Positions 6,907-30,248 of a stretch of DNA of 64,000 nucleotides are shown piece after piece. This stretch comes from Deltaproteobacteria bacterium (GTDB lineage Bacteria > Myxococcota_A > Polyangia > Fen-1088). The notes beneath the pieces were generated by a model. It was not told the origin of the DNA. It did not search any database and saw nothing but the letters and a program-made list of their open reading frames with translations. How positions within the stretch are numbered: the first letter of the stretch is position 1; the number at the start of each line of letters is the position of its first letter. The stretch covers positions 32,001 to 96,000 of the forward strand of contig JANRKS010000005.1 in NCBI GenBank assembly GCA_033763315.1, given 5' to 3'. Position numbers and translations under genes: made by a program.

Positions 6907-8568
<1,662 letters not shown>

Positions 8569-13520: not shown

Positions 13521-13537
13521 GGGACCGGGGGAAACGA

Positions 13538-13565
13538 AGTTTACGGAAGGGGTGTTGTCCGCCAT
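13538..13565. other. dif/Xer-like recombination site 1
   Basis: agtttacggaa-ggggtg-ttgtccgccat with conserved left flank ccgggggaaacga. Confidence 0.6.
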
Positions 13566-13874
13566 CTGCGGCTGGGCGCCACCTTTGTCGCGAGTGCAAA
13601 TGCAGCTTGAATGTCCTAAGTGCGCCAACCCCAGCGATCACATCCACGGCAGCGCAACAAAGCGGTGCTAGGCGCGTTCATCAACTCAACGCCGATTGAA
13701 GTGTTTGAACAGAGGCGCGGTTGGCCGCCCTAGCCCGCGGGATCCGGTCTTGCCACAGCACAAAGCGCCTACGACCGGCGCCTCGTGGATCCGTGATCAA
13801 TAGTAGTTTTGTACCTGTAGATCAGGTGATATCTGCGTCTGACGCCTTCCTCGTCGCTCAGATAGCATCTATGG

Positions 13875-15452
13875 ATGCACAAGCGTACAGCAGTATCGTC
13901 GCGCGTCGCAGACCGCCGGTTATTCCTTCGTGGTGCCGGCGGCGTGGTCGTTGGCCTGCCTTTTCTGCCTTCAATCCTCACCCGCCAGGCCCATGCAGCA
14001 GACCCCGTGCCGTCCAGGAGGAAGTTCTTCTATGCGATGGTCACAGAGCACGGAGGCGCTTGGGACAGCAACTTCTTCCCGTCTCAGAGCCTGCTGACTC
14101 AGAAGACCAACTACGCCGCCGCCGGGCACGACATCCGTTGGGGCGAGCTCACTCCGCAGAGCAGCGGCGGACAAACAAGCCTCTCTAAGGTTTTGACGGC
14201 ACCGTCAAGCTCGCTTTCGCCTTCGCTGTTGCGGAAGATCAACGTCATCCGCGGGCTTGATACCGCCATGCACATTGGTCACAACCGCGGCGGGGTGTTG
14301 GGCAATTTCGCCGACACGAACGGCCAGAACCAGCTAGGCCTTTCGCACCGCCCCACCTTGGATCAAATCATGGCGTGGTCCCCGGCCGTCTATGCGACGC
14401 CTCAATCACTCAAGCTGCGCAGCATGGCTTACGGACCATCGTGGGGTTATGCCAATCCAGCCGCGCAATCGGGCACCGTGCAAAAAGTAGGGGACGCCGG
14501 CAGCTCGCGAGATCTGTTCGACAAGATCTTCACGCCCCAAGGCACTGTCACTCCGGTGCCGGTTCGCAAGCCCATCGTGGATAAGATCATCGCGAACTAC
14601 AGACGCTTGCGGGATTCCGACCGCAGGTTGTCGGCGGATGATCGGCGGCGCTTGGAGGCGCATATGGCGTTGCTTGCAGAAACCGAAGCGCGCCTAGCCA
14701 ACGCGAACAGCGAAGCGTTTTCGTGTGGCAAAAACACAAAGCCTACCGAAAGCCACTCGGACAATTACGGCAATATGACCAAGTACGTGAACCTTCTGCA
14801 CGACGTGTTCGCAGTTGCGTTTGCCTGCGGTTCCAGTCGCATTGCAACAGTTTCACTTTATCCATTTGTGGGTGAGGGCGGCGGTGACTGGCACCAAAGC
14901 GTGGCTCACCAATGGCAAACCAACAGCGCACAAGATCACTTGGTCAAGTTCTACGCGTCAGTGTTTCGGAACGCATTCTTGAACTTTGCAAACAAGCTTG
15001 ATGCAATCGCGTCCGGGCCGGGCCGAACCCTTCTAGATGATTCGCTGCTGATGTGGACGCAAGAATCCGGCATGGAAACGCATTGGCAAGTCTCGATCCC
15101 GGTGGTCACCGCTGGGGGTGCCGGAGGCGCCATCAAGACAGGCTCGTTCATCGACTACCGCAACATGAACTCGCCGCATAAATACTTGGCTGGCGAAGTG
15201 ACCTGGGCGGGCACTGACGACAAAGCACGCATACACGGCCTGCTGTACAACCAGTTCTTGGCCACCGCCTTGTTGGCCATGGGCGTGCAACGTCCCGAAT
15301 TTGAGCGCTGGGGACACAAGGGCTTCGGTCACGTGGGATTTGGCACCGTGCCCAACGAATACCCCCACGCAACCACCCGGTCGTACTATCAAGGCGAAAC
15401 CGGCAAGTTGTTCCAAATCGCAAGCGATCCCTTGCCAGTTCTTAGCGCCTGA
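13875..15452 (+). CDS. DUF1552 family protein
   Basis: DRRLFLRG..VGLPFLPSI, TLDQIMAWSP, LSADDRRRLEAH, LLDDSLLMW; paralog of 3133..4623. Confidence 0.85.
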   Translation: MHKRTAVSSRVADRRLFLRGAGGVVVGLPFLPSILTRQAHAADPVPSRRKFFYAMVTEHGGAWDSNFFPSQSLLTQKTNYAAAGHDIRWGELTPQSSGGQTSLSKVLTAPSSSLSPSLLRKINVIRGLDTAMHIGHNRGGVLGNFADTNGQNQLGLSHRPTLDQIMAWSPAVYATPQSLKLRSMAYGPSWGYANPAAQSGTVQKVGDAGSSRDLFDKIFTPQGTVTPVPVRKPIVDKIIANYRRLRDSDRRLSADDRRRLEAHMALLAETEARLANANSEAFSCGKNTKPTESHSDNYGNMTKYVNLLHDVFAVAFACGSSRIATVSLYPFVGEGGGDWHQSVAHQWQTNSAQDHLVKFYASVFRNAFLNFANKLDAIASGPGRTLLDDSLLMWTQESGMETHWQVSIPVVTAGGAGGAIKTGSFIDYRNMNSPHKYLAGEVTWAGTDDKARIHGLLYNQFLATALLAMGVQRPEFERWGHKGFGHVGFGTVPNEYPHATTRSYYQGETGKLFQIASDPLPVLSA

Positions 15453-15590
15453 GAGCTCAGCCGACCTCGAACTCCGGTCTCTATAGGCAACAAGCGCTTT
15501 GTGGCCGTCGGAGAAAACACGCGCGGGCGTCCTCAATCCTCTGTTCCGGCAGCCTATACGGAGCGGTGGGTTCAAGTCGAAGCGTCTACG

Positions 15591-15818
15591 CTACGCGGGT
15601 GCAACGCTTGCTCTGGCTCGTAACGTGATGAACGCGCTACGGGTGTGATTGTGCGCGATCACTCCTACCGCCAACGCCAAGTAAATCGACACGGGACACA
15701 GAATGGGGATCCACTGTGGCCGCGCATACTGCAGCCCCGCGGCTATCGACAGCGCCGCCCACACAACGGTTCGCCAGCCGTTATTGTTTCGCAGCAGCAC
15801 GGGCCGTGAGCTCTGCAC
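15591..15818 (-). CDS. Small hydrophobic hypothetical protein or fragment
   Basis: 75 aa ORF with two hydrophobic segments. Confidence 0.3.
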   Translation of the reverse strand: MQSSRPVLLRNNNGWRTVVWAALSIAAGLQYARPQWIPILCPVSIYLALAVGVIAHNHTRSAFITLRARASVAPA

Positions 15819-15848
15819 GCCAGCCCAATCGCCCGCGGCTATGTGCGT

Positions 15849-16403
15849 TCAGTGTGAAGCGCTCGTTGGCGTGCCGATGGCGGTCAGGGCGCTCACAATA
15901 TCAGCGCTCACAGGAGTTGGTTCGGGCCCTTCGCTGCGCTGTCTGGCCACGTTCGCTGCGTCTTTGAGCGTCACGATGCCCAATAACAGGTTGTCGCTGT
16001 TTAACACCGGAAGCCTGTTTACTTGCGCGGAGCTCATACGTTGAAGGGCACGGTCCGCCGTGTCCGTTGGCATCGTGACGACGGCGGCAGCCAATGAATC
16101 CGTCGGCCTGCACGTGGCAACGGATGTGGTCATGATTCCTTCCACGATCGTTCCTCGGCCGCTCTGGCTAAGCCGACTACGAAATTTTCTGAGTTGTTCC
16201 GCGGCGCTCTCCACGGCGTCGGCAGTCATGCCCTTTAGGTGTTCAGCGGCGGCACTCGGATCAGGGAGATTCTTCTCGATGGTTTTCCACTCGCTGCGCA
16301 ACTCCATGCCCGCCAAATGCAGATCGACGACGATTTGCTCGCGAAGCGATTTGAGTTCAGCAAGCTTATCCTGCACCTTGTCTCGTAAAGTTTGGTTCGC
16401 CAT
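15849..16403 (-). CDS. CBS-domain protein, probably internally deleted
   Basis: Coiled N-terminus, then IMTTSVATCRPTDSL..M jumping directly to PTDTADRALQRMSSAQVNRLPVL. Confidence 0.65.
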   Translation of the reverse strand: MANQTLRDKVQDKLAELKSLREQIVVDLHLAGMELRSEWKTIEKNLPDPSAAAEHLKGMTADAVESAAEQLRKFRSRLSQSGRGTIVEGIMTTSVATCRPTDSLAAAVVTMPTDTADRALQRMSSAQVNRLPVLNSDNLLLGIVTLKDAANVARQRSEGPEPTPVSADIVSALTAIGTPTSASH

Positions 16404-16609
16404 GGAATCCTCCGGGGTGTTTCAGCTTCCTCGGCTCGCTGCAATGGTTGTTCCATACCTCCCTCCCATAAGAACGCGGCGCATGGCGGTCGTTGAGTCA
16501 ACCGACGTAACTGTGGAGAAGCGGCGGGCGGCAGCCGAAACGGATGCCATAAGGAAGCGTTCGGCGGCGTCCCCGGGCGATTAACAGGAGTTCAATCTCG
16601 CGCCATGAC

Positions 16610-18748
16610 CTACGGCCCCGCAGCCTCAGTCTCTTTGGCTGCCGCCACACGCTTGGTTACGTCATCCAGCAACGGCACGATGTCGGTGGAGAAGAAGTCC
16701 ATGTCCCCGGCTAGCTCCGGAAATGCTTTGGCATACAGGGGGCCCTGCTTCACCAAGCCCTCCAATTTGCCCTGCCACGTTTCGAGAGCCCGCAGGAGCT
16801 CCGGTCTGTCTGCCACAGCGCCTGCGGCTTTGAGCTTATCCTGCATGAGCAGCAAGAAGGTACGCATGATGTTTCCGTTCATCCGCACCATCGCCGGTAT
16901 GCGCAGGTCTTTCGTATCCTCCGGCACATCTGCCAAGGCGACCTTGAACCATTGCCCATGCAGCAGAAGCGATATGGGCGGCGCTTTGCCATCGCCCCGC
17001 CACAACGGGGCGTGGCCAAAATCACCAAGGCTGGTTTTTGCCTGCGTCTGCACCATCACGCGCTGAGCATTGAACAAGGTTTGCAGCGCGCGGTGTTCGC
17101 CGATCTTGAGCCCATTCCAATAAACGGCTTCAGTTGTGTTGTGGCCAGCGCCGCCCGAATTGAGCAAGCCTTGATCAAGCAACTCACCAATCGTGAACCA
17201 GTTGTGAGAGAAGTCGCCCGCGAATTCTTCGGTGGCGTCGCGTTTTCCTTGGGGCAGCTCCGCACGAACGTCCTCTGGAAACTGCGTAGCATAGCCCTCT
17301 TGGCAAGGTGGATCGTTCGCGCAGGGCGGACCGATGGTCGTGTTGCCCGTATTCCACCACGGGTTCATGTAGCCGCTTTTGTGATCTTCGAAAGGCACAG
17401 GGCCAAGCTCAAACCATCCTGGCTTTTTCATTAAAGCCATCCGAAAAAAGTGCTGCGCCAACAACACAGACTCATATTTTCCCTGCATGATGCTTGTGAG
17501 CCAGTTGCCGTGCCCAAGCTTGCCGTTGGCCTCGAACCAGTCGTCATAACCACCATCGTTTGTCATCTTGTCGACAGCGTTGAGCAAGGCATAAAGAGTG
17601 GTATTGGTGGGGTTCGCGGTATAGGCGTCCATAAGCTTGTACCAAGCGTCTTTTTGCGCGGCGTGTGGCACACGCGGCAACTGCGGAATCCAGTCGTTGA
17701 TGGATCTGTGCTCTTCACCGTTAAAGGCGTCCTCAGTCCACCGGGCGAAGTGAATGCCAAGCTTTGTTTTGCGTAGGTCGAGCGTAGAGAGCTCATCCCT
17801 GACCGCTTGCGCCCTGGCCAAGGAATCCACCTTGGACGTCATCAGCAGCGACTTTGAAGCCACAAGGTTCTGCAGAAACGAATGATCTTGCTCGGCGCGC
17901 GTAGTTCCTGGCAACGGCTGACCACCTGGCTGAAACGGGCGCCAGTCTGTGGTGCAGGGCCGCGTGATGTTGAATCGCTTACGTTGCGCATGCACCAGAT
18001 CTCGTACGACCAGAGCCTGCTCGCTTGTCAGATGCAAAGTAGCCCGTCGCAGGATCGCGTCGTCTCGATAAGCGATCACGGCAAGATCGATGGCGTCTGG
18101 GCTGTGGCAATTGGCGCACGCCATTCCTTTCGGATCGGGCATGCGCCACATAGCCAAGCCTTTCTGATAGGCCTCCTCGACCTGGGCGTTGTCCCAGTCA
18201 ACCTCTGCCGCAAGAGCGCCACTGCCGGGTTTGATCGATTCAGGACGCCTCGAAAGCGTCCCGAAATCCGCGCGCAGCTCGCTGTCGGGCAGCACGGAGG
18301 CAGCAAAGGCAGGCATGCCATGGCCACCCATGCGCACCCGGCTTATGTATGTGGCTTCGTCTAGTTTTCCAGGCAGCGGCGGGTACTTTCCCTGCCCTTC
18401 GCCGTAGCCACCGTGACAGGTTGAGCACGTGCTTTTGTAAACTGCGCTTAGCTTCACGCCATCCGGCAGGCCCACGCCATAACCCGGGGCCGCCACGGTG
18501 GGGCAGTCCAACATGCCCACAATCGTGGGCCCGGCGTCACCGTCGCCTGGCATGGGGCCATACGTGACGCTGCCCGTTGTCGAACCAACGTTGCCCGGCT
18601 TGTCGACGCCCCCAGCCCCTGCTTTGCCCGCGCCCCCGCCGGAATCATCGAGTCCTTCCTCTGGGATCCGTACCGCTCCGGAACAACCAGCCGCCACCAA
18701 CACCACCACAACGAACGTGGAAAAACCGTAACCTGCAGGGTTCCTCAT
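16610..18748 (-). CDS. Large di-heme c-type cytochrome lipoprotein
   Basis: Lipobox AAGC; CSTCH and CANCH; shares GMLDCP, CHSPDAI, WRPFQPGG.PLPG and W.ED.FNG..HRS.NDW with 884..3100. Confidence 0.78.
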   Translation of the reverse strand: MRNPAGYGFSTFVVVVLVAAGCSGAVRIPEEGLDDSGGGAGKAGAGGVDKPGNVGSTTGSVTYGPMPGDGDAGPTIVGMLDCPTVAAPGYGVGLPDGVKLSAVYKSTCSTCHGGYGEGQGKYPPLPGKLDEATYISRVRMGGHGMPAFAASVLPDSELRADFGTLSRRPESIKPGSGALAAEVDWDNAQVEEAYQKGLAMWRMPDPKGMACANCHSPDAIDLAVIAYRDDAILRRATLHLTSEQALVVRDLVHAQRKRFNITRPCTTDWRPFQPGGQPLPGTTRAEQDHSFLQNLVASKSLLMTSKVDSLARAQAVRDELSTLDLRKTKLGIHFARWTEDAFNGEEHRSINDWIPQLPRVPHAAQKDAWYKLMDAYTANPTNTTLYALLNAVDKMTNDGGYDDWFEANGKLGHGNWLTSIMQGKYESVLLAQHFFRMALMKKPGWFELGPVPFEDHKSGYMNPWWNTGNTTIGPPCANDPPCQEGYATQFPEDVRAELPQGKRDATEEFAGDFSHNWFTIGELLDQGLLNSGGAGHNTTEAVYWNGLKIGEHRALQTLFNAQRVMVQTQAKTSLGDFGHAPLWRGDGKAPPISLLLHGQWFKVALADVPEDTKDLRIPAMVRMNGNIMRTFLLLMQDKLKAAGAVADRPELLRALETWQGKLEGLVKQGPLYAKAFPELAGDMDFFSTDIVPLLDDVTKRVAAAKETEAAGP

Positions 18749-18974
18749 AAGGCCCTTCTGGCTGCGACTTTCGATACCGGCTCAAAAATCGTATCGCTTC
18801 GTAACGCGAACTGCCCATGCACGTTCCGACAGGTTGCCCGGGAACGAAAGTGGTTTGCTTGTCGACCTCGGGCTGCGACGTCTGCCCGTTGAGATCAAGC
18901 TGGGAGAGACGGTGGTGTTCGATTTCCTGGTCGACAAGCACTACCCATAGACACTCCGTTGTGCGGGCTGGGGG

Positions 18975-20141
18975 CTAGCGCCCTAGCTCGTCGAGCGCAC
19001 GACGCGCGTCTCGGCGTACGCGATCACTTGGATCGCGCAGCGCCTGCTCAAGCAAGGGTCGAGCCTGCGTGGGCGCGTTTTCCGCAAGCACCCGCAGCGC
19101 GTGCCGCCGATCATCAGAGTTGCTTGCGCTTGTGGCCTGGCTCTGCAAGCGCGTCGACTCTTTCTCAAACGCACTCCCATCGCCCATGCGCTTAAGAGCG
19201 AGTGCCGCGTCAAGCGCTGACGGACCTGTGCCGTCGCCGTAGCTTTGGCGTAGTGCGCCTAGCGCTTGCGCATCGCCCACTTCGCCAAGTCCCCTTATCG
19301 CTTCGCCTTGCACTTCGAAGTCTTTGTCGGCAAGCGCCCGCAAGAGACCCTGCACAGATTCCGGTCCACCCAAATCATGCAACCCGCGGACGGCATCCAT
19401 GCGCGCGCGTGAGTCTTTGTCGACCAACAGTGCGGCAATGTCATTGGCTGCTGCTGAGCGCACGGCGGGGTCGGTAGAGTTCTCGGCCATGTCGGCCAAA
19501 GCTTTGGCGGCGCGCCCACGCACGCTGGAATCGGCATCGGTCAGTAACGCCTTCATCGCCGGGATATGCGCAGGACTCTCCAGACTCTCGAGCGCGTCGA
19601 TCGCTTCCTTCCGAATGCGCGCATCGGGGTCGGCCAACAGGCCTTTGATTGCCGCCAGCGCCTGCGGGTCGGTTTTCACGCGCCCGCGCATGCGGCGCAA
19701 AGCCTGTCGCCGTTCGTCGGCGTCGTCAGATGAAAGCAACGCCTGCTCCGTGTCGCCCCCGTTTGCCGCGCGCTCTTGTAACTGCGCGACCTGACGTGAC
19801 AGTTCGGCGACTGCATTTGCCAACGATGCGCTCTCTGCTCCTTCCGATGATGGATCAATGACGAAGACGGGCGGCGGCAAACGGGTTGGCTGCGTATGAT
19901 CAAAGCCTGCTTCAAGCGCGCTTAACCGTGCCGTCAGTTCCCGCACATTGCCGCTCCGGACGCCGCCCATCACCGCAATCGCGGAAACTGTGCCAGCAAA
20001 GGGCACAGCGAAAGCGAACAACCATACGAAAGCGGAAGGCCCACTATGGGGAGGGGCGGAACCATGCCGCCCTGCATCGTTGCCACGCGGCTGCGCAGGG
20101 GCCACTTCGGTCTTAGAACTGTGTTGACGAAACGGTTGCAT
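18975..20141 (-). CDS. HEAT-repeat membrane protein
   Basis: One TM segment, then repeated LLADPDARIR/LLTDADSSVR/ALADKDFEVQ/ALRDPSDRVR units. Confidence 0.8.
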   Translation of the reverse strand: MQPFRQHSSKTEVAPAQPRGNDAGRHGSAPPHSGPSAFVWLFAFAVPFAGTVSAIAVMGGVRSGNVRELTARLSALEAGFDHTQPTRLPPPVFVIDPSSEGAESASLANAVAELSRQVAQLQERAANGGDTEQALLSSDDADERRQALRRMRGRVKTDPQALAAIKGLLADPDARIRKEAIDALESLESPAHIPAMKALLTDADSSVRGRAAKALADMAENSTDPAVRSAAANDIAALLVDKDSRARMDAVRGLHDLGGPESVQGLLRALADKDFEVQGEAIRGLGEVGDAQALGALRQSYGDGTGPSALDAALALKRMGDGSAFEKESTRLQSQATSASNSDDRRHALRVLAENAPTQARPLLEQALRDPSDRVRRDARRALDELGR

Positions 20142-20256
20142 GACGTCTCTACTGGTCGGGACGGCGGACCGTGCAAAAGCGTCACAAGATCGCCAAATAA
20201 CGAAGTCTCAAGCCACTTGCTTGAACGTTTTGCTAACTTCGGCGGTAGTACTGACA

Positions 20257-20925
20257 ATGTTCTCCAAGACAATCACCCTGCAACCCGATGCGCTTTGCGC
20301 GAATGTTGGGTCTGATGTCTCCCGTGACGATGAGGCGCGTGAGATACGGCGGTTGTTGCGCGAGGCCCAGGCCGGCGATGAGCGTTCGTTCGGCGCTTTG
20401 GTCCGTCGCTACGAAGGAAGGGCTCTCGCGGTGGCTCGGCGACTTTTGGGCAACCGCGACGATGCGATGGATGCCACCCAGGATGCGCTCTTGCGTCTGT
20501 TTCGTTTTATCGGTCGGGTCGATGGCGAACGCGACTTCGGCGCATGGGTTTATCGGGTTGTGGTGAATGCATCAATGGATCTGATGGAACGCCGACAGCG
20601 TCACGCCGGCGCCTTGCAGGAGATGCAGGCCACCATTGATCCGCAGGACCTTGCCGTGTCTGCCGCCCCAGAGGCAAACGTGGAGGGACAGCGCGTTCGG
20701 GTCGCTGTGTCAGACGTAATCGCGCGCTTGCCGCCAAAAGAACGCGCGGCGCTGATTCTGCGGGACGTTGAAGGTCTATCCACGCGCGAGGTGGCGCGCT
20801 TGCTCGAATCAAGCGAAGCGACGGTACGCTCGCAAATCTGCGCGGCGCGGGGCAAACTGCGGAGCATGCGTGCCACGATGGACGAAGGACACCCAGACGT
20901 AGCGCGAAAGGATGGTGCGCGATGA
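20257..20925 (+). CDS. ECF sigma factor
   Basis: GDERSFGALVRRY, DAMDATQDA, FGAWVYRVVVN, LPPKERAALILRDVEGLS..TVRSQI; start uncertain. Confidence 0.88.
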   Translation: MFSKTITLQPDALCANVGSDVSRDDEAREIRRLLREAQAGDERSFGALVRRYEGRALAVARRLLGNRDDAMDATQDALLRLFRFIGRVDGERDFGAWVYRVVVNASMDLMERRQRHAGALQEMQATIDPQDLAVSAAPEANVEGQRVRVAVSDVIARLPPKERAALILRDVEGLSTREVARLLESSEATVRSQICAARGKLRSMRATMDEGHPDVARKDGAR

Positions 20926-22526: not shown

Positions 22527-22554
22527 GAGTTACGGAAGGGCTGCTATCTGTCGT
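22527..22554. other. dif/Xer-like recombination site 2
   Basis: gagttacggaa-gggctg-ctatctgtcgt, same orientation as sites 1 and 3. Confidence 0.55.
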
Positions 22555-22702
22555 TTAAAACACTTTGCCTCAATGGTGGAGGTGAAAAGTCGTCATAGGG
22601 TCTATTTTATTGGTCCCGAATTCGGGGCCCCAGGGTATCGTGATCGGCGGTGTACCGCGACTATGCCTCCTATGCCCTATCAGTTGCCGGCATAAGGCTC
22701 AC

Positions 22703-24043
22703 ATGTTGACTGCCGATCAAATTCTCGCTCTCTCCCCTGATGATTCATCGGCAAAGTCCGCAAAGGGGCTGCTGAGTCCGGCGAAGTGGCCGACGCTGGG
22801 TTATACGGAGGCTGCGATCTGGGGCGAGTGCCAAGGGAGTGGATCGAAGCCGTATCAGGTGATCATTGATGTCGGCGGGCCGTCCTTTAAATGCACATGC
22901 CCGAGTCGTAAGTTCCCCTGCAAGCATGGTCTGGCGCTGTACTTGTTGTTGGCGCAAAAGCAGAGCGCCTTCACGTCAAAGGAGCTACCGACCTGGGTGG
23001 CAGAGTGGCTGAAAGACCGGCAGGTTCGTGCGGAGAAGCAGGCCGAGAAAAAAGAATCCAAGGTGGCTGTTCCAGCCGATCCTGAAGTCGCTGCGAAACG
23101 TGAAGCGAAGCGACTCGATCGCATGATCGGCGGCGCGCGTGACCTAGAGCGCTGGATGGCAGATCTGGTGCGTCATGGCATCGCCGATCTACCGACGAAG
23201 CCTGTCAACTTTTGGCGTGAGGTTGCCGCGCGCCTCGTGGATGCTCAGGCGTCCGGTCTTGGCCATGCGGTGAGGCAACTCGAGGCCACCGTTTCCTCTG
23301 GCGAAGGCTGGCAGCAGAGCGCGCTTATGCAGATGGGTCGTATGCAATTACTCACAGATGCCATGCAGCGTCTCGACACACTACCGGAGCCGCTGCGACA
23401 GGATGTGCGTGCCTTCGCGGGCTGGCCTTCGGACAAAGAAGACGTGCTGGCCGCGGGCGATTGCTTGGAGGATACCTGGCTCGTTCAAGGCGTGAGTTAC
23501 GATGAACACGAGAAGCTATGGGAGCGCCGTGTTTGGCTGTGTGGTTTGCAGTCGCAGCGTCAGGCCTTCCTGCTCGATTTTTCGCATGGCCAGCGCCGCT
23601 ATGATCATGGTTTCGTGCCGGGCATGGCCGTGAAGGCGAAGCTGGCATTCTTTCCCAGTGCCTATCCCTTGCGTGCACTTCTGACGAATGTTCCACAGTC
23701 GATCGAGACAAATGTTGCCACGTCAGAGGCGCATTCATGGGATTCGGCGCTTGATTCCATAGCCACCGCGCTTGGCAGCAGCCCGTGGATGCAGCGCCTG
23801 CCGCTCATGCTTCATGGCGCCACGCCGATCTCGCACGGCAACCGCTGGTTCGTCCTCGACACCGACTTGCGCGCCGTTCCACTGCGCATCAGCGAAGAAG
23901 ATGGCTGGCAACTGCTTGCGCTCAGTGGCGGGCATCCACTGTCGATCTTCGGGGAGTGGCTCGGTGACCGCTGGCGACCGCTCACGGCGTGGTCAGTGGA
24001 TGAATCAACTCCATGCTGGACGGAGGCCGTCGTACTCGCATGA
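22703..24043 (+). CDS. SWIM zinc-finger protein
   Basis: WGECQGSGSKPY, CTCPSRKFPCKH. Confidence 0.9.
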   Translation: MLTADQILALSPDDSSAKSAKGLLSPAKWPTLGYTEAAIWGECQGSGSKPYQVIIDVGGPSFKCTCPSRKFPCKHGLALYLLLAQKQSAFTSKELPTWVAEWLKDRQVRAEKQAEKKESKVAVPADPEVAAKREAKRLDRMIGGARDLERWMADLVRHGIADLPTKPVNFWREVAARLVDAQASGLGHAVRQLEATVSSGEGWQQSALMQMGRMQLLTDAMQRLDTLPEPLRQDVRAFAGWPSDKEDVLAAGDCLEDTWLVQGVSYDEHEKLWERRVWLCGLQSQRQAFLLDFSHGQRRYDHGFVPGMAVKAKLAFFPSAYPLRALLTNVPQSIETNVATSEAHSWDSALDSIATALGSSPWMQRLPLMLHGATPISHGNRWFVLDTDLRAVPLRISEEDGWQLLALSGGHPLSIFGEWLGDRWRPLTAWSVDESTPCWTEAVVLA

Positions 24044-25584
24044 ACGCACTCGCCTCACTCGCCGCCACCGCATTGATCGGCACGGAACGTCGCCCGCCAG
24101 AATGGCCCTCCCAGGATGGACCGCTCGGTGAGTTGCTCGCCAAGATCACGCGCGATCAACCGGAAAAGGCGCTGCTACAAACCGCGGGTGTGTTGGCCAC
24201 CTGTCATCTCGCGGGCTGGCTCCCGACCACCATTGGGCAATCGACGCCTGTAGCTCTGGACGATGTTTTGCAGGCGGCCGCCGCACCCACATTGCTGCAA
24301 ACGCTCTCCGGCATCCTCACCGACGGCCCAACTCGCTTGCAGGCGGAGGCTTTTCAAAAACTCGCTGCTGCAAACCGCACACTCCCACATCGGCTGTTAC
24401 CCAAAGCTCTCGATGCCGGCAAGCGCAGCACGGTGCTTCGTCCGCATCTACTACCCGCCCTCGGGCATCGAGGCACCTGGCTCGCCGCGCAAAACGAAGC
24501 GTGGGCCTATGCTGTCGGTGGAGGCAGCGAGTCGCTCGACGATGAAGCCTGGCAGAACGGAAGTCTCGATCAGCGCAAGCTTTACCTCACGGCTCTGCGT
24601 CCTCGCGATGCCGACAGAGCGCGCGCACTCATTGCCGCCGCGCTGACAACGGAAGGTGCTCGAGAGCGCGCGACCTTCATCGAATGCCTCTCCACGGCAC
24701 TGAGTCTCGCAGATCAAGATTTGCTCGAAACCACGCTTACGGACAAAAGCAAAGAAGCGCGACAGGCTGCGTTGCGTTTGCTGTCATCGCTCTCCGGCTC
24801 ACGCTTCATGCAGCGAATGGCCGCGCGCCTTGAGCCCTGCCTCATGATGGAGAAAAAGTTCCTCCGCGGCACCGTGATCACCTTGGAGCCGCCCGCTGTC
24901 TTTGTGGCCGAATGGAAGGCAGATTTGATCGAAGAAGCGAAGCCGAAAGGCTTGGAGATGGGCGAACGCGCCTGGTGGCTGCTGCAACTTGTCCGTGCCG
25001 TTCCGCTGAAGTGGTGGGAAGAGAAGACATCGCTCAAACCAATCGAACTCATCGAGTGGGCCAAGAAATCTGATTGGAGCGAAGCCTTGTTACAAGGCTG
25101 GGCCGCAGCGCAGTCCTTGCAGCAACGAGTCGAATGGGCAGAAGCCTTCCTGTCGACACAGATCCCGCAGGGCAGCTCGCTCAACGTGCTCGACTTGCTG
25201 ATCACGCTTCCGCTGGCTATCCGCGAGAAGCATTTCCTTCGCCTCCTCAGCGCCGCAGATGCGAAACAGCCGGGCTCTATGAGTGCGCTGCTCAACCGCT
25301 TCATTGATAGCATTCCATTGGATTCACCATCACTCTCGGTCGACACCGCAAACACACTGATTCAGTTTCTCAAACGCCGCGTGAACAGCGGCGAGGCCCG
25401 CCACGACTGGCTACTCCGCACCACCCTTGTCGAACTCGCTTGCATCATTCCACCCGCGCAATTCGAGGACTGTGCCGGCGGCTGGGATATCACCAAAGAT
25501 GACGTTCAGCCCTTCGCCGAGGCCATCGCACGAGTCGGCATCGTGCTCGATCAACGCAAACAACTCCACTCACTCGGAGCCTGA
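24040..25584 (+). CDS. DUF5691-like protein
   Basis: ALIGTERR, LGHRGTWLAAQNEAW, DKSKEARQAALRLL; position in operon. Confidence 0.75.
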   Translation: MNALASLAATALIGTERRPPEWPSQDGPLGELLAKITRDQPEKALLQTAGVLATCHLAGWLPTTIGQSTPVALDDVLQAAAAPTLLQTLSGILTDGPTRLQAEAFQKLAAANRTLPHRLLPKALDAGKRSTVLRPHLLPALGHRGTWLAAQNEAWAYAVGGGSESLDDEAWQNGSLDQRKLYLTALRPRDADRARALIAAALTTEGARERATFIECLSTALSLADQDLLETTLTDKSKEARQAALRLLSSLSGSRFMQRMAARLEPCLMMEKKFLRGTVITLEPPAVFVAEWKADLIEEAKPKGLEMGERAWWLLQLVRAVPLKWWEEKTSLKPIELIEWAKKSDWSEALLQGWAAAQSLQQRVEWAEAFLSTQIPQGSSLNVLDLLITLPLAIREKHFLRLLSAADAKQPGSMSALLNRFIDSIPLDSPSLSVDTANTLIQFLKRRVNSGEARHDWLLRTTLVELACIIPPAQFEDCAGGWDITKDDVQPFAEAIARVGIVLDQRKQLHSLGA

Positions 25585-25588
25585 AACC

Positions 25589-26665
25589 ATGAACCCCCAA
25601 CGCCAACACGCTGAACAGAACTTTGCGCTAGAAATCGACGAACTCCGTAAAGCCGACACTCGTCAACGCCCGACCAACTGGAACCTTTCACCATGGGCTG
25701 TTTCACAGTATTTGCTCGGTGTAAAACTCGACAACGGATTCGAAGTCACCGCCAAATACATCGGCGATCGTCGCGTCATTGAAATCGCCGTCGCCACGCT
25801 GGCTACCGATCGTGCGCTGCTGCTTTATGGTGTGCCCGGCACGGCGAAGAGCTGGGTTTCCGAGCATCTTGCTGCCGCCATCTCTGGTGATTCGACCCGG
25901 CTTATTCAAGGCACTGCGGGTACCAGCGAGGAACAGATGCGCTACGGTTGGAACTACGCGTTGCTGTTGGCTAAAGGTCCTTCCCATGAAGCCCTCGTAC
26001 CGAGTCCGCTCATGCGCGCGATGAAGGATGGTCGCATCGCCCGTGTCGAGGAACTCACGCGGATCCCAGCGGACGTACAGGACACACTGATCACCATTTT
26101 GTCGGAGAAAACATTGCCGATCCCCGAGCTATCAAGCGAGGTGATGGCGAATCGCGGCTTCAACGTCATCGCCACCGCCAACAATCGTGACAAGGGCGTG
26201 AACGAACTCAGCAGTGCCCTCAAACGTCGATTCAATACCGTTATTCTGCCCGTACCTGCCACAGAGGAGGAAGAGATCGCCATCGTGACAAAACGAGTCA
26301 GCGAAATGGGCCGCGCGCTCGAGCTTCCCAGTGAACCACCAGCGCTCAAAGAAGTGCGCCGTCTAGTGCAAATCTTCCGCGAGCTGCGTGACGGCCAGAC
26401 CGCCGATGGCAAGACCAAACTAAAATCCCCTACTGGCACGATGAGCACCGCCGAAGCCATCAGCGTGCTGAACAGCGGCATCGCCCTCGCCACGCATTTC
26501 GGCGATGGCACACTGAGCGCTGGCGACCTGGCCGCCGGACTGGTCGGCGCCGTAATCAAAGACCCCGTGCAGGATTCCGTCGTGTGGAAGGAGTACCTCG
26601 AAACCGTGGTGAAAGAGCGGAGTGAGTGGAAGGATCTTTATCGGGCATGCCGGGAGATGATTTGA
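25589..26665 (+). CDS. MoxR-type AAA+ ATPase (YehL-like)
   Basis: GVPGTAKS Walker A, RVEELTR, ATANNRDKGVNELSSALKRRF. Confidence 0.92.
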   Translation: MNPQRQHAEQNFALEIDELRKADTRQRPTNWNLSPWAVSQYLLGVKLDNGFEVTAKYIGDRRVIEIAVATLATDRALLLYGVPGTAKSWVSEHLAAAISGDSTRLIQGTAGTSEEQMRYGWNYALLLAKGPSHEALVPSPLMRAMKDGRIARVEELTRIPADVQDTLITILSEKTLPIPELSSEVMANRGFNVIATANNRDKGVNELSSALKRRFNTVILPVPATEEEEIAIVTKRVSEMGRALELPSEPPALKEVRRLVQIFRELRDGQTADGKTKLKSPTGTMSTAEAISVLNSGIALATHFGDGTLSAGDLAAGLVGAVIKDPVQDSVVWKEYLETVVKERSEWKDLYRACREMI

Positions 26666-26668
26666 GCT

Positions 26669-28939
26669 GTGGATCGACGGATCGTGACTCACCTCTTCGG
26701 CATTCGTCATCATGGCCCCGGCTGCACGCGATCGCTAGTTCGTGCGCTTGAGGAATTGTCGCCAGATTGCGTATTGATTGAAGGACCACCGGAAGCCGAA
26801 GCTGTACTGGCATCGGCTCTACACGCGGAAATCGAGCCACCGGTCGCTCTGCTTCTGTATTGCCCAGATGACACGAAGCTGGCCTCGTTCTATCCCTTCG
26901 CCGATTTTTCACCTGAGTGGCAGGCCATCCGCTTTGGGCTTCAACAGAGCATTCCCGTGCGCTTCATCGACTTGCCTCAGGCGCATGACCTTGCCCTGCG
27001 TAAAGAGTGTGAACAGGCCGATTTACCCGATTTGCCGCCAGCAGATCCTCAAGAAGATGTATCCGGGGACCCCCTCGACTGGCTGGGCCGTGCGGCAGGC
27101 TACGGTGATGGTGAAACCTGGTGGAACCAGATGGTCGAAGAACGCCGCGACTTCGACAGCGCAGGTCTTTTCGATGCCATTCAGGAAGCCATGACAAGTG
27201 TGCGTGCTGAATTGCCGCGTCGCTTGTCCAAAGATGCCGTACATCGTGAGAATCTGCGTGAGGCGTACATGCGTCGATGCATCCGCCAGGCGGAAAAAGA
27301 TGGCTTCCAGAAGATCGCAGTGGTTTGCGGCGCCTGGCATGTGCCCGCTCTCGCCACCATGCCTGCAGCAAAGGCAGATAGCGACCTCCTCAAAGCTCTG
27401 CCAAAAGTGAAAGTGGCAGCCACGTGGGCACCGTGGACGTATGGTCGGCTGGCTTCTGCAAGCGGCTACGGCGCCGGTGTGCTGTCACCAGGCTGGTATG
27501 AGTTCTTGTGGAAGAATCAATCTGTTGATGCGAGCCAGCGAGCCATTGGTTGGATCTCCAAAGTCGCGCGCTTCATGCGTGGCGAGGACATGGACTGCTC
27601 GTCCGCGCACGTCATTGAAGCCGCCCGTCTCAGCGATGCTCTGGCAGCGATGCGTGAGCGTCCGGCTCCAGGTCTCGAAGAGATCAATGAAGCCGTGCGA
27701 ACGGTGATTTGTATGGGTGAGGATGCCCCGTTGCGTCTTATCCACGCACAATTGATCGTCGGTGAAAAACTTGGTCGTGTGCCGCCAGACGTACCCACCG
27801 TGCCGCTTCAGCAGGACCTCAAAAAGCAGCAGCGAAGTCTTCGCATTAAGCCCGAGGCAATCGCCAAAGACCTCGATCTCGATCTGCGCAGTGAAAATGA
27901 TCTCGCCCGCAGTCATCTACTCCATCGCCTGAATCTGCTTGGTGTGAAGTGGGGCGAGGTGCGAGGCGCGGGCCGCAGCGCCAAAGGCACCTTCCACGAA
28001 ATCTGGCAACTCCGCTGGCAGCCCGATTTCGCCATCTGCATCATCGAAGCCAGCCGTTGGGGCCAGTCCATCATTGATGCAGCCACTGCGCTCGCCATGG
28101 ATGAAGCGCAGAAAGCGCAGTCGCTGCCTGCACTCTCGAAGCTCGTGGATCGAGTGTTGCTGGCCAACCTTCCCCACGCCGTTGAGTCGGTTACTCATGC
28201 TCTAGAAAACCAGGCCGCCATCGCCGGCGACACGTCACAGCTTCTGGAGGCCATCCCTCCGCTCGCCAACATCTTCCGCTATGGCAATGTCCGACAAACC
28301 GATGCCTCGCTCGTCGGTCATGTGCTCGACAGTCTCGTCGCCCGTGCATGCATAGGCCTCAGCGGTGCCTGCGCGTCACTCGACGACGATGCGGCGGTGA
28401 AAATGCGCGCACGCATCGTCTCGACCCATCAAGCCATCAAGCTCATCGGTAAGGAGGTGCACCTCACCGACTGGATGCCTGCGCTCACGCGAATTGCCGT
28501 GCTCGGCGGTACACATGGCCTCATTTCCGGCCTCGCCGCTCGCCTGCTCTTTGATGAGCAAGCCGAAGATGTGGGGACCACCTCCACACGTGTGAGTCAG
28601 GCACTTTCGATCGGAAACGACCCCTCACAGGCTGCCGCCTGGCTTGAAGGCTTCCTCCATCAAAGCGGTATGATCCTCCTCCACGATGATCGCCTGTGGC
28701 AAACCGTGGATTCCTGGGTCGCCTCACTGACTGAGGAAACCTTCACGCGCATCCTCCCGCTCATCCGTCGCACTTTTTCGACCTTCCCTGGCACTGAGCG
28801 CATCCAACTGGGTCAACGAGCCAAGCACACCAATGACAGCCATCCTGGGACGTTGGCGCATACCAGATTGGATTGGAACCTTGAGCGCGCCATGAAGCCA
28901 CTGCCGGTGCTGCATCAAATTCTGGGTATCCCAACATGA
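26669..28939 (+). CDS. DUF5682 / YehM-like protein
   Basis: FGIRHHGPG, LIEGPPE, FSPEWQA, REAYM, VVCGAWH, SGYGAG. Confidence 0.88.
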   Translation: MDRRIVTHLFGIRHHGPGCTRSLVRALEELSPDCVLIEGPPEAEAVLASALHAEIEPPVALLLYCPDDTKLASFYPFADFSPEWQAIRFGLQQSIPVRFIDLPQAHDLALRKECEQADLPDLPPADPQEDVSGDPLDWLGRAAGYGDGETWWNQMVEERRDFDSAGLFDAIQEAMTSVRAELPRRLSKDAVHRENLREAYMRRCIRQAEKDGFQKIAVVCGAWHVPALATMPAAKADSDLLKALPKVKVAATWAPWTYGRLASASGYGAGVLSPGWYEFLWKNQSVDASQRAIGWISKVARFMRGEDMDCSSAHVIEAARLSDALAAMRERPAPGLEEINEAVRTVICMGEDAPLRLIHAQLIVGEKLGRVPPDVPTVPLQQDLKKQQRSLRIKPEAIAKDLDLDLRSENDLARSHLLHRLNLLGVKWGEVRGAGRSAKGTFHEIWQLRWQPDFAICIIEASRWGQSIIDAATALAMDEAQKAQSLPALSKLVDRVLLANLPHAVESVTHALENQAAIAGDTSQLLEAIPPLANIFRYGNVRQTDASLVGHVLDSLVARACIGLSGACASLDDDAAVKMRARIVSTHQAIKLIGKEVHLTDWMPALTRIAVLGGTHGLISGLAARLLFDEQAEDVGTTSTRVSQALSIGNDPSQAAAWLEGFLHQSGMILLHDDRLWQTVDSWVASLTEETFTRILPLIRRTFSTFPGTERIQLGQRAKHTNDSHPGTLAHTRLDWNLERAMKPLPVLHQILGIPT

Positions 28940-30117
28940 GCGACGCCATTTCTAACACCGAAAGACAACGCCGCTGGCGACTCGTGTTAGGCGGCGAGGC
29001 AAATGAATCTTGTGGAGCGCTTGCGGGTGCCGACATGGAGATGGATCGGGCTCTGGCGGCCCTTTACGAGCCTGATGGCCCTGATGGGATGAAATCAGGC
29101 CGCCGTGGTGGCACGGAAAAGTCTGCGCCTCGAGTCGCCCGTTGGCTGGGAGACATTCGCAAATATTTCCCGGCCAGCGTCGTCCAGGTCATGCAGAAGG
29201 ACGCTCTCGACCGTCTCGGCATGAGAGAGATGCTCCTTCAGCCGGAGATGCTCGAAGCCGTACAGCCCGACGTGCATCTGGTCGCCAGTCTCATTTCCTT
29301 GTCCGGTGTGATTCCTGCCAAGACAAAGGAAACCGCCCGTCTCGTGGTACGTAAGGTGGTGGATGAACTCATGCGCAAGCTTGCCGAGCCGATGCGCAGT
29401 GCCGTCACCGGTGCTCTCAACCGCGCCACGCGCAATCGCCGACCCCGAACGGCCGAAATCGACTGGAACAGAACCCTCCGTGCCAATCTACGGCACTACC
29501 AAGCTGATTATCAGACGATCGTTCCCGAGACCTTGATCGGTTTCGGTCGCAAAGCACATAAGACCCAGCGCAACATCATCCTCTGCATCGACCAAAGCGG
29601 CTCCATGGCTGCCAGCGTCGTGTATTCGAGCATTTTCGGTGCAGTGATGGCCTCATTGCCCGCCGTGAAGACCCAACTTGTCGTCTTTGACACCGCTGTG
29701 GTCGATCTGACCGAGAAACTCGATGATCCCGTCGAACTCCTCTTTGGCACCCAACTTGGCGGCGGCACTGATATCAACAAAGCCGTCGGCTATTGCCAAT
29801 CTCTCATCACAGATCCAGCCAACACGATCCTCATCCTGATCTCGGACCTGATCGAAGGCGGTGTCGAAAGAAACCTGCTCCAGCGCACCAACGAACTCGT
29901 TCAAAGCGGCGTGCAATTCATCACCTTGCTGGCCTTGAGTGATGAAGGTGCGCCTTGTTACGATCAAGAGCTCGCCGCCAAGATGAGTCTGCTCGGGGTT
30001 CCCAGCTTTGCCTGTACGCCCGACAAATTCCCATCCCTGATGGCTGCGGCCATCAAGAAAGACGACATCGCTCTTTGGGCGGCAAAGGAAGATATGGTGG
30101 CAACGAGAAGAGGATGA
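28936..30117 (+). CDS. VWA (CoxE/YehP-like) protein
   Basis: RRWRLVLG, IDQSGSM MIDAS motif, QLGGGTDI, LISDLIEGG. Confidence 0.9.
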   Translation: MSDAISNTERQRRWRLVLGGEANESCGALAGADMEMDRALAALYEPDGPDGMKSGRRGGTEKSAPRVARWLGDIRKYFPASVVQVMQKDALDRLGMREMLLQPEMLEAVQPDVHLVASLISLSGVIPAKTKETARLVVRKVVDELMRKLAEPMRSAVTGALNRATRNRRPRTAEIDWNRTLRANLRHYQADYQTIVPETLIGFGRKAHKTQRNIILCIDQSGSMAASVVYSSIFGAVMASLPAVKTQLVVFDTAVVDLTEKLDDPVELLFGTQLGGGTDINKAVGYCQSLITDPANTILILISDLIEGGVERNLLQRTNELVQSGVQFITLLALSDEGAPCYDQELAAKMSLLGVPSFACTPDKFPSLMAAAIKKDDIALWAAKEDMVATRRG

Positions 30118-30152
30118 TGCTCGCTCTTATCGACGATAGCCCGGGAAAACGA

Positions 30153-30180
30153 AGTTTACGGAAGGGATGTTATCGGTCTT
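30153..30180. other. dif/Xer-like recombination site 3
   Basis: agtttacggaa-gggatg-ttatcggtctt (bottom strand AAGACCGATAA-CATCCC-TTCCGTAAACT); left flank ccgggaaaacga. Confidence 0.65.
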
Positions 30181-30205
30181 TCCCTCACTGGTTACCCTGA
30201 TGACG

Positions 30206-30248
30206 CGCCGAGCACGATGCCCGCTTACCCGCCGAGCACGATGCCCGC
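30206..30248. repeat. 19-bp direct repeat duplicating the Uma2 gene 3' end
   Basis: cgccgagcacgatgcccgc at 30206 and 30230. Confidence 0.9.

What the first reader, a model, noticed from the sequence alone, without database searches (positions are those of the whole stretch)
13525..30180. Three direct-repeat dif/Xer-like 11-6-11 sites delimiting cassettes
Seen: agtttacggaa-ggggtg-ttgtccgccat (13538), gagttacggaa-gggctg-ctatctgtcgt (22527) and agtttacggaa-gggatg-ttatcggtctt (30153). They share orientation, a GGGnTG core and a conserved left flank (ccggg..aaacga). Each lies at a junction: site 1 beside an orphan CTERM tail, site 2 beside a truncated ORF fragment, site 3 beside a duplicated Uma2 end. 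Established: E. coli dif is GGTGCGCATAA-TGTATA-TTATGTTAAAT. The bottom strand of site 3 (AAGACCGATAA-CATCCC-TTCCGTAAACT) has the same architecture, with 7/11 identity in the XerD arm. Inference: a tyrosine-recombinase cassette system with ~9.0 kb and ~7.6 kb units excisable as circles. The TTCC in place of inner TTAT hints at a dedicated recombinase rather than canonical XerD. Such circles might also feed the groEL array.
Basis: partly seen in the sequence, partly recalled or inferred. Interest (0 to 1): 0.85.

Follow-up and report, generated by a model that had tools for sequence, protein, structure and literature searches.

The report
dif-mimic ends of ISCR-like transposons
The three repeats are real and do resemble this bacterium's own chromosome-resolution site (dif), but each is the core of a roughly 100-base end-piece of a rolling-circle transposon of the ISCR kind, a link that may help explain how such gene-capturing elements move.

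Summary
The three 28-mers sit where stated, in one orientation, at junctions.

They are not free-standing sites. Each is the core of a ~100-nt module with five copies in the genome. One copy lies just downstream of a 5'-truncated ISCR-like (IS91-family, HUH-Y2) transposase gene. In a same-genus relative, two full IS copies share sequence exactly up to the module's outer end, so the module is the IS right (oriIS-side) terminus. That end resembles the ISCR2 end.

The dif reading also holds. The genome has one canonical dif-like site (contig C23). After it, the best arm matches in 7.6 Mb are site 3 (18/22), the C7 copy (17/22) and site 1 (17/22). XerD and a XerC-like gene are present.

Five relatives carry the same module architecture, three of them in same-orientation arrays bounding 3-10-kb blocks, some with cut genes at their edges. 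In one relative, module halves are reshuffled across the core. IS1202-like "dif-hunter" ends lie 5-6 nt from the XerC-like arm, as at that genome's true dif.

No tyrosine recombinase lies on this contig, and no intact cognate transposase was found. No circles or empty sites were seen, but the read data were too thin to test this.

This is a new variant of a known kind.

The parts
13525..13623 (+). Module copy s1. It runs from the left boundary CCGGGGG to the end-like CCTAAGTGC, is diverged, and has an ~11-nt gap in the middle.
   Evidence: Alignments.
13538..13565 (-). dif-like core of s1. Bottom strand: ATGGCGGACAA-CACCCC-TTCCGTAAACT.
   Evidence: 17 of 22 arm positions match the genome's own dif.
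22516..22577 (+). Module copy s2. The left part and core are present. It breaks off at ...CTCAATGGT, so the outer (oriIS-like) end is missing.
22527..22554 (-). dif-like core of s2, with a one-base deletion in the XerD-like arm.
30141..30206 (+). Module copy s3, with an 11-nt internal deletion. The right limit is uncertain and could extend to about 30240.
   Evidence: One low-depth metagenome contig continues past 30181 with the undeleted module sequence (table 7).
30153..30180 (-). dif-like core of s3. Bottom strand: AAGACCGATAA-CATCCC-TTCCGTAAACT.
   Evidence: 18 of 22 arm positions match the own dif. This is the best non-dif match in the genome.
13624..22515 (.). Block A between s1 and s2. 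Genes: DUF1552, CBS-domain protein, cytochrome c (712 aa), HEAT-repeat protein, ECF sigma factor, zf-HC2 anti-sigma factor, and an ORF with a weak Secretin_N hit.
22578..30140 (+). Block B between s2 and s3. It is exactly one operon (22610-30117): SWIM, DUF5691, AAA_5/MoxR, DUF5682, VWA_CoxE.
   Evidence: DUF5682 passes its cut-off in only 2 of 40 relatives. There is no PADLOC system match.
13299..13430 (-). Orphan C-terminal sorting-tail-like remnant abutting the left side of s1.
   Evidence: stop-to-stop ORF 13299-13637, minus strand.
30206..30248 (.). A 19-nt tandem duplication (period 24) of the Uma2 gene end, abutting s3.
   Evidence: Uma2 was identified.

Best explanation
The three sites are the cores of three partly decayed solo copies of a ~100-110-nt module. 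That module is the right-hand (oriIS-side) end of an ISCR-like, IS91-family rolling-circle element.

The module is built as follows: [CCGGG...] - [XerD-arm-like | 6 nt | XerC-arm-like, a mimic of the host dif] - [45-75 nt] - [GCTTGAAnnnnCCTATGC end].

Shown:
- The module ends the IS.
- It also occurs without the IS, always starting at the same inner boundary.
- Its core is the closest thing to dif in the genome.
- In relatives, copies lie in one orientation and bound multi-kb blocks, some with cut genes at their edges.

Inferred:
- Blocks A and B were brought in or assembled by this element family. One route is rolling-circle copying that starts at the module's outer end and runs leftwards into neighbouring DNA (one-ended transposition, or the two-oriIS 'sandwich' structure). 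Another route is recombination between modules.
- Host XerC/D bind the core. Two direct modules could then be recombined, excising a block as a circle that can re-enter at another module.
- In this genome the system looks fossil. The only cognate transposase found is truncated, and s1 and s2 are damaged.
For: Module and IS in this genome:
- There are five copies.
- The C26 copy lies about 110 nt after the stop of a Y2_Tnp ORF.
- The C7 copy keeps the last ~200 nt of the IS, including ~96 nt of transposase coding end, at 89% identity.

The same layout in relatives:
- G002 has an intact 542-aa Zn_Tnp_IS91+Y2_Tnp gene followed by the module.
- G001 shows it too. In G020 it is seen by coordinates only.
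- In G001, two full IS copies at different loci share sequence exactly up to the module's outer end and then diverge.
- The end resembles the ISCR2/ISVsa3 end CTTCCTATAC. The transposase is 40.6% identical to ISVsa3 and its best NCBIfam hit is ISCR clade Ia.
- Solos share the inner boundary in G000, G001 and G002.

dif mimicry:
- The genome has one canonical site, on C23.
- A single site of this kind is found in 16 of 40 relatives, and at least one match in 28 of 40.
- GC skew changes sign at the G024 site, and C23 skew is negative in 9 of 10 windows.
- Arm scores are 18, 17 and 17 of 22, against a shuffled-genome maximum of 17 reached once.
- XerD passes its equivalog cut-off, and a XerC-like gene is present.

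Activity at the core in G001:
- Left and right module halves occur in the combinations L1R1, L1R2, L2R2 and L2R3, with an identical core.
- ISNCY_2-type IS ends lie 5-6 nt from the XerC-like arm of two cores. An IS-end-like remnant lies 5 nt from the true dif. This is the geometry reported for dif-site hunters (PMC10132070, passages read).

Precedents in the literature (passages read):
- An ISCR28 'sandwich' between two sequential oriIS, and attC sites at the ISCR gene end (PMC12772301).
- CR2-sul2 units moved by an integrase at att sites that coincide with the ISCR2 boundaries (PMC9376610).
Against: - No binding, excision or transposition was observed.
- The read data showed no joints, but cover was thin and consisted of contigs only. 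That is not informative either way.
- The XerD-like arm carries TTCC instead of the inner TTAT, next to the cleavage position.
- The central regions (CAnCCC) differ from the dif central region (CAGATA).
- s1-s3 differ from each other at central position 3.
- No consensus hairpin was found for an IS91-type origin. The alifold energy is about 0 and single-sequence z-scores range from -2.2 to +2.6.
- No CTTG or GTTC tetranucleotide lies next to the module ends.
- G001's mosaic modules could arise by short-homology recombination in the shared 43 nt rather than by Xer.
- The genome holds no intact cognate transposase, only residues 230-538 of 542. The assembly is 90.85% complete.
- Same-genus relatives are too diverged for synteny tests (about 67% DNA identity). 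That blocks A and B are insertions is therefore not shown.
Confidence: 0.6

Rival explanations
1. The sites are pure fossils. They are decayed right-end remnants of ISCR-like insertions, with no Xer activity and no present or past role in moving blocks A and B. On this view the likeness to dif reflects what the HUH transposase recognises, or ancestry from an insertion near dif.
For: - The module is the IS terminus.
- The cognate transposase is truncated.
- s1 and s2 are damaged.
- The inner XerD-arm positions are changed.
- The G001 IS left end carries GCGCGATAAGCC, an inverted copy of part of the XerC-like arm. The arm could therefore be an IS inverted repeat.
Against: - The likeness covers both arms at the right spacing. 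It reaches 21/22 in the G002 copy, by my hand count; the scan covered G000 only.
- dif-hunter-type IS ends sit at the 5-6-nt offset from module cores, as at the true dif.
- Module halves are reshuffled across the core.
- The solos' fixed inner boundary needs a regular process, not random decay.
Confidence: 0.25
2. This is an autonomous Xer (or other tyrosine-recombinase) cassette system. The module is an independent recombination site with accessory sequence, and the ISCR-like element is merely one more IS that settles beside it.
For: - There are direct-orientation arrays in G001, G010 and G014.
- Each genome has its own near-uniform central region.
- Other IS families also sit beside modules.
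- Mosaic modules occur.
Against: - Independent IS copies in G001 carry the module inside the shared sequence up to its outer end.
- The outer end resembles the ISCR2 oriIS end.
- The Pfam tyrosine-recombinase scan gave no match on contig C5.
- Some block edges cut genes, unlike tidy cassettes.
- The sites are not at the chromosomal dif, unlike IMEX elements.
- They are direct rather than inverted pairs, unlike Acinetobacter dif modules (PMC10132070, passages read).
Confidence: 0.12
3. The sites are a regulatory motif, such as an ECF-sigma-type promoter (GGAAC-N17-CGTT) or a small RNA placed in front of genes.
For: - GGAAC-N17-CGTT can be read in the C7 copy, and an ECF sigma/anti-sigma pair lies in block A.
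- s1, s2, s4 and s5 have a co-oriented gene 80-340 nt downstream.
- The ISCR1 oriIS region does carry outward promoters (PMC6218425, passages read).
Against: - The -35 and -10-like letters are not conserved in the G001, G002, G010 and G014 modules.
- s3 faces the 3' end of a convergent gene.
- The downstream genes are unrelated.
- The G000-type motif (GTTACGGAAGGGNNGNTATC, up to 1 mismatch) is absent from 40 relatives.
- No Rfam family matches at gathering threshold, and there is no consensus fold.
Confidence: 0.03

Closest known systems
ISCR elements of the IS91 family (ISCR2/ISVsa3, ISCR1, ISCR28)
   Same: - A HUH-Y2 transposase with Zn_Tnp_IS91 and Y2_Tnp domains.
- About 210-220 nt between the stop codon and the right end, compared with ~232-240 nt in ISCR1 and ISCR2.
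- An end of the form ...CCTAT(G/A)C, like ISCR2's ...CTTCCTATAC.
- Cargo genes next to or between oriIS copies (the 'sandwich' of PMC12772301).
- Truncated copies that keep only the oriIS side.
   Different: - Only 40.6% amino-acid identity to ISVsa3.
- Below the NCBIfam ISCR clade Ia cut-off.
- The host is a Polyangia-type genome rather than a proteobacterium.
- The right end contains a mimic of the host dif, and it occurs as discrete solos with a fixed inner boundary. I found neither feature described in searches.
Acinetobacter pdif / dif modules
   Same: - 28-nt XerC-6-XerD-like sites away from the chromosomal dif that bound gene modules.
- IS1202-family 'dif-site hunters' insert 5 bp from the XerC arm (PMC10132070). 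The same geometry is seen in G001.
   Different: - Those modules are bounded by inversely oriented pdif pairs and are mostly on plasmids.
- Here the sites are direct repeats, chromosomal, embedded in a ~100-nt IS end, and some block edges cut genes.
IMEX elements (CTX-phi, TLC-phi and others) that exploit XerCD
   Same: - dif-like sites with an altered XerD side or central region.
- A rolling-circle (HUH) replicon combined with host Xer, which is the logic proposed here.
   Different: - IMEX elements integrate at the chromosomal dif itself.
- These modules lie on another contig, at least 45 kb from its ends.
- No phage genes are present.
CR2-sul2 units mobilised by the GIsul2 integrase
   Same: - An ISCR2-type element whose predicted boundaries coincide with tyrosine-recombinase att sites.
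- Three direct att sites delimit excisable units (PMC9376610, Introduction and Discussion read).
   Different: - That system uses a dedicated integrase encoded in the island and an att core GAGTGGGA.
- Here no integrase is nearby and the core mimics dif.
Integron attC sites and cassettes
   Same: Direct ~60-140-nt recombination sites that separate gene units.
   Different: - No consensus folded structure.
- No integron integrase on the contig.
- The units are 7.6-9 kb and hold several genes.

Membership tests
Xer/dif-type core site | An 11-6-11 layout whose arms match the host's own dif. | tested here: met
   s3 scores 18/22, s1 17/22 and the C7 copy 17/22 against C23:3715-3742. These are the three best non-dif scores in the genome. 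The shuffled genome gave one hit at 17 and none higher. s2 and the C26 copy have indels and score lower.
Xer/dif-type core site | Inner dyad ...ATAA / TTAT... flanking the central region. | tested here: not met
   In G000 the XerD-like arm begins TTCC, not TTAT. The XerC-like arm keeps GATAA in s3 and the C7 copy, but reads GACAA in s1 and GATAG in s2. The feature is met in the G002 copies (TTAT).
Xer/dif-type core site | The host encodes XerC and XerD. | tested here: met
   The C9 ORF scores 359 bits on TIGR02225 XerD, above the 329.6 cut-off. The C16 ORF's best hit is TIGR02224 XerC at 293 bits, below the 335 cut-off, so it is XerC-like only.
Xer/dif-type core site | Recombination products: hybrid sites, empty sites or circles. 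| tested here: inconclusive
   G001 module halves are reshuffled across an identical core. No joints were seen in the one run laid, which consisted of thin contigs.
Xer/dif-type core site | Binding and cleavage by XerC/XerD. | not testable with these tools
   Needs EMSA and recombination assays.
IS91/ISCR right end (oriIS side) | Lies downstream of the HUH-Y2 transposase gene and forms the terminus shared by independent IS copies. | tested here: met
   Searches give the position in G000 and G002. Searches show that two G001 copies are identical in extent up to ...GTTCCTGTACGCA| and have different flanks.
IS91/ISCR right end (oriIS side) | Terminal sequence like known ISCR oriIS ends. | tested here: met
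   ISCR2 (L054) ends ...TTCTTCCTATAC. G001 ends ...GAACTTCCTATACGC and G000 ends ...AAACGCCTATGCTC. The likeness is short (7-11 nt).
IS91/ISCR right end (oriIS side) | Subterminal palindromes or secondary structure. | tested here: inconclusive
   no consensus structure across 11 modules, and z-scores are not significant. Single copies have local palindromes, for example AAGGGAC/GTCCCTT in the C7 copy.
IS91/ISCR right end (oriIS side) | The target tetranucleotide CTTG or GTTC abuts the oriIS end (a feature of IS91, IS801 and IS1294; PMC13181058). | tested here: not met
   The flanks after the end read TTCA, CTGA, GCCA, CGCC, ACTC, TGTA and GACC.
IS91/ISCR right end (oriIS side) | An intact cognate transposase in the same genome. 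| tested here: not met
   only residues 230-538 of 542 are present, on C26. A second, unrelated Y2_Tnp lies beside two integrases on C27. The assembly is 90.85% complete.
Acinetobacter-type dif module | A module bounded by two inversely oriented pdif sites. | tested here: not met
   All three window sites, and the arrays in G001, G010 and G014, are in direct orientation.
IMEX | Integrated at the chromosomal dif. | tested here: not met
   The candidate dif is on C23. The sites are at C5:45.5-62.2 kb on a 385-kb contig.
Integron cassette array | attC sites with a folded structure, plus an integron integrase. | tested here: not met

The most novel reading that the evidence does not exclude
In this Polyangia-type lineage, ISCR-like elements are hybrids that combine rolling-circle copying with host Xer recombination. 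The dif mimic in their origin-side end lets XerC/D excise, integrate and reshuffle the DNA blocks lying between direct modules. This would be a chromosomal, Xer-driven cassette system seeded by an IS91-family transposon. Tyrosine-recombinase sites at ISCR ends (attC in ISCR28, att in CR2-sul2, dif-like here) would then be a general part of how ISCR elements move.
Probability: 0.3. Interest if true: 0.85.

Novelty: new variant of a known kind. Interest (0 to 1): 0.62.

Why it matters
ISCR elements are major gene-capturing vehicles, including for resistance genes. According to the passages I read in PMC6218425 and PMC9376610, their own transposition has never been shown experimentally and their boundaries are debated.

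Here an ISCR-like lineage carries a mimic of the host dif inside its origin-side end. This gives a concrete, testable link between rolling-circle elements and Xer recombination.

It also extends the idea of dif-like sites bounding gene modules from Acinetobacter to chromosomes of an uncultured Polyangia-type group. As by-products it supplies that group's candidate dif sequence and a case of IS1202-like dif-site hunters outside Acinetobacter.

Tried and rejected
- ECF promoter or small RNA reading. Rejected, for the reasons given under the fourth rival.
- Attachment to a dedicated tyrosine recombinase. There is none on contig C5. The two integrases beside the second Y2_Tnp on C27 have no module nearby: there is no hit at or above 16/22 on C27.
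- Synteny test for insertion of blocks A and B. Same-genus genomes are only about 67% identical in DNA, and the neighbours of the DUF3160 orthologue in G001 are unrelated. Uninformative.
- Reads. One run held 0.16 of the sampled words. Laying three runs gave 29, 1 and 0 contigs, many bins without cover, and no joints. This neither supports nor opposes circles or empty sites.
- Two metagenome scans with module patterns found nothing.
- The motif as a conserved feature of relatives. The G000-type core is absent from 40 relatives. Only the looser dif-like pattern finds their own variants.
- ssDNA hairpin or attC-like fold. There is no consensus.
- Paralogy of the genes downstream of the C7 and C26 copies. 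There is none.
- Block B as a defence system. No PADLOC system matches; only weak single hits were found.
- GC skew at the G011 site was noisy and inconclusive. Module orientation relative to skew was inconsistent across three loci.
- An early assumption that the genome was a planctomycete, and that L016 came from another phylum, was wrong.
Supplements were not opened. The Yuan et al. paper on ISCR28 is not in the library and is known to me only through passages of PMC12772301.


Full report
**1. Observation**

They share the GGGnTG centre and the left flank ccggg..aacga.

The likeness is not chance.
- The 13-mer with up to 2 mismatches gives 8 window hits against 0.9 expected, and 0 of 100 shuffles reach 8.
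- The exact 11-mer TTACGGAAGGG occurs 5 times in the 7.63-Mb, 40-contig genome, three of them here.
- An nhmmer profile finds five copies at E <= 2e-3: the three window sites, C7:175103-175153 and C26:95398-95352 (minus). The next hit is at E = 0.95.

Three of five copies within 17 kb is itself improbable. My estimate is roughly 5e-5 for random placement; this is an inference, not a call result.

**2. Surroundings**

Block A (s1 to s2) holds these genes:
- DUF1552
- a CBS-domain protein
- a 712-aa cytochrome c
- a HEAT-repeat protein
- an ECF sigma/anti-sigma pair
- an ORF with a weak Secretin_N hit

Block B (s2 to s3) is exactly one operon: SWIM, DUF5691, AAA_5/MoxR, DUF5682, VWA_CoxE. It starts 33 nt after s2 and ends 24 nt before s3. 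DUF5682 passes its cut-off in 2 of 40 relatives, so the operon is patchy.

- Left of s1 lies an orphan C-terminal tail of a minus-strand gene.
- Right of s3 lies the 3' end of a Uma2 gene, with a 19-nt tandem duplication.
- The Pfam tyrosine-recombinase scan gave no match on this contig. The genome's five matches lie on C9, C16, C27 (two) and C2.

**3. The sites are cores of a longer module that ends an ISCR-like element**

The C7 and C26 copies share 313-324 nt at 89% identity. On C26 this stretch begins inside a Y2_Tnp ORF (PF04986). The core therefore lies about 110-150 nt after the stop, and the shared sequence ends 213 nt after it. That ORF is a remnant. It matches only residues 230-538 of an intact 542-aa relative, and nothing else in the genome matches.

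The intact relative (L016) has Zn_Tnp_IS91 and Y2_Tnp domains. It is followed by the same blocks of sequence.
- Its genome is G002, a same-genus relative.
- There the last ~130 nt of the IS also occur as solos with unrelated flanks, starting at the same homologous point as s1-s3.

The decisive test came from G001. Two full IS copies at different loci (96.9% identical) share sequence through the stop codon and the whole module, and they diverge exactly after ...GTTCCTGTACGCA. The module is therefore the IS terminus.

Further points on family membership:
- The terminus resembles that of ISCR2/ISVsa3 (...CTTCCTATAC; L054).
- The transposase is 40.6% identical to ISVsa3 over 86% of its length. Its best NCBIfam hit is 'ISCR element clade Ia', below the cut-off.
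- The IS91-family layout places terIS upstream and oriIS in the last ~80-240 nt downstream. I took this from passages of PMC13181058, PMC6218425 and PMC2725981.

In the window, s1 is a nearly whole but diverged module (13525-13623). s2 has lost its outer part (22516-22577). s3 has an 11-nt internal deletion (30141-30206 or further). One low-depth metagenome contig continues past 30181 with the undeleted sequence.

**4. The core really does mimic dif**

A scan for ATAA-N6-TTATGTNAA finds one exact site in the genome: C23:3715-3742 (minus), ATGTCCGATAA-CAGATA-TTATGTAAACT.

A pattern built from it, with up to 2 mismatches, matches in 28 of 40 relatives. Sixteen have a single site, typically CCGATAA-CAGATA-TTATGTCAAC. 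The reversed-pattern control gave 2 hits in 41 genomes.

GC skew supports a terminus location.
- In G024 the skew is positive in 4 of 5 sampled windows before the site and negative in 4 of 4 after it.
- G011 was noisy.
- C23 is negative in 9 of 10 windows beyond its site.

I take the C23 site as the chromosomal dif. The genome encodes XerD (above the equivalog cut-off) and a XerC-like protein.

Scoring every 28-mer of the genome against the dif arms gives 22 for dif, then 18 (s3), 17 (C7 copy) and 17 (s1). The shuffled genome gave one 17 and nothing higher. By my hand count, the G002 IS-linked copy matches 21 of 22; the scan covered G000 only. The true dif sites lack the module flanks.

**5. 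The same architecture in relatives**

Twelve of 40 relatives have two or more matches to the dif-like pattern. I checked flanks in G001, G002, G010, G014 and G020.

All show this layout: [CCCGG...] - 13-40 nt - XerD-like arm - 6 nt - XerC-like arm - 45-75 nt - GCTTGAAnnnnCCT(A/G)T... end.

Copies lie in one orientation in local arrays:
- G001 C11 has six sites over 50 kb.
- G010 C100 has three sites, 3.0 and 3.7 kb apart.
- G014 C89 has two sites.

In G001, four solos are 100% identical over 106 nt while the DNA between them is unrelated. The blocks hold mixed cargo, and some edges cut genes. One example is the first 138 residues of a peptidase S46, the only trace of that family in the genome.

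**6. Signs of activity at the core (all in G001)**

- Module halves occur in combinations. The solo and L068 copies share the left half (39/39) but not the right (31/39). L068 and L069 share the right half (44/44) but not the left (35/39). The core is identical in all three.
- ISNCY_2-type transposase genes belong to IS whose TGTAG...AAATGTCC ends lie 5-6 nt outside the XerC-like arm of two different module cores. An IS-end-like remnant lies 5 nt from the XerC arm of G001's true dif. PMC10132070 (passages read) reports this geometry for the IS1202 family, the 'dif-site hunters', which ISfinder keeps in the NCY group.
- This is indirect evidence that the cores are treated like dif in the cell.

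**7. What remains open**

- No excision, binding or transposition was seen.
- The XerD-like arm begins TTCC, and the central regions differ from dif.
- No consensus hairpin and no CTTG/GTTC flank support an IS91-type origin.
- The solos' fixed inner boundary lies just after a conserved CCTTGTTTT(T)C. It suggests a regular process, such as early termination of rolling-circle copying or a mini-element, but I could not test this.
- Whether blocks A and B were inserted could not be tested for lack of close relatives.

**8. Comparison with known systems, and novelty**

The closest known things are:
- ISCR elements, including cargo 'sandwiched' between two sequential oriIS and attC sites at the end of ISCR28 (PMC12772301, passages read)
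- CR2-sul2 units moved by an integrase at direct att sites that coincide with ISCR2 boundaries (PMC9376610, Introduction and Discussion read)
- Acinetobacter dif modules
- IMEX elements

Searches listed no paper describing a dif-like site inside an IS91/ISCR end, or dif modules in Myxococcota. I read only listings and the cited passages, and supplements were closed.

I file this as a new variant of a known kind. The dedicated-recombinase cassette model is at best half the story.

Noticed in passing
window 51817-51892 (-): A c-di-GMP-I riboswitch (57 bits, above the gathering score) lies just upstream of ORF 50459-51805 (-), which has no Pfam hit.
   Followed up: no
G000 contig C23:3715-3742 (-), outside the window: Candidate chromosomal dif of this lineage: ATGTCCGATAA-CAGATA-TTATGTAAACT. 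Near-identical single sites occur in 16 of 40 relatives.
   Followed up: partly
G001 loci L070:4419-4489, L067:4072-4110 and L077 around 4134-4156: IS1202-like (ISNCY_2) IS ends sit 5-6 nt from the XerC-like arm of two module cores. An IS-end-like remnant sits 5 nt from the true dif. This may be 'dif-site hunters' outside Acinetobacter.
   Followed up: partly
window 13642-13703: A ~60-nt dispersed repeat between s1 and the DUF1552 gene. It matches several loci of G001 and G002 at 78-85%.
   Followed up: no
window 31048-31100: A 54-nt repeat also present at 91% and 85% in two G002 loci (C75, C195). There is no protein-level likeness.
   Followed up: partly
L016:4165-4420 (G002): A second 235-256-nt repeat family starts right after the IS end. 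It has at least 15 copies in G002, three of them direct on contig C291 at 2.1- and 3.7-kb spacing. In G000, too, the DNA after the C26 copy is a dispersed repeat.
   Followed up: no
G000 contig C27:2346-5099, outside the window: A second, unrelated Y2_Tnp gene lies next to two tyrosine-recombinase genes. The same trio pattern is seen in G002 C1 and G020 C84.
   Followed up: no
window 884-4623 and 13875-18748: Paralogous pairings of a large cytochrome c protein (738 and 712 aa) and a DUF1552 protein occur twice in the window. DUF1552 with DUF1588/DUF1592 occurs again at 57393-60773.
   Followed up: no
window 6943-8568 (+): A Cpn60/GroEL gene.
   Followed up: no
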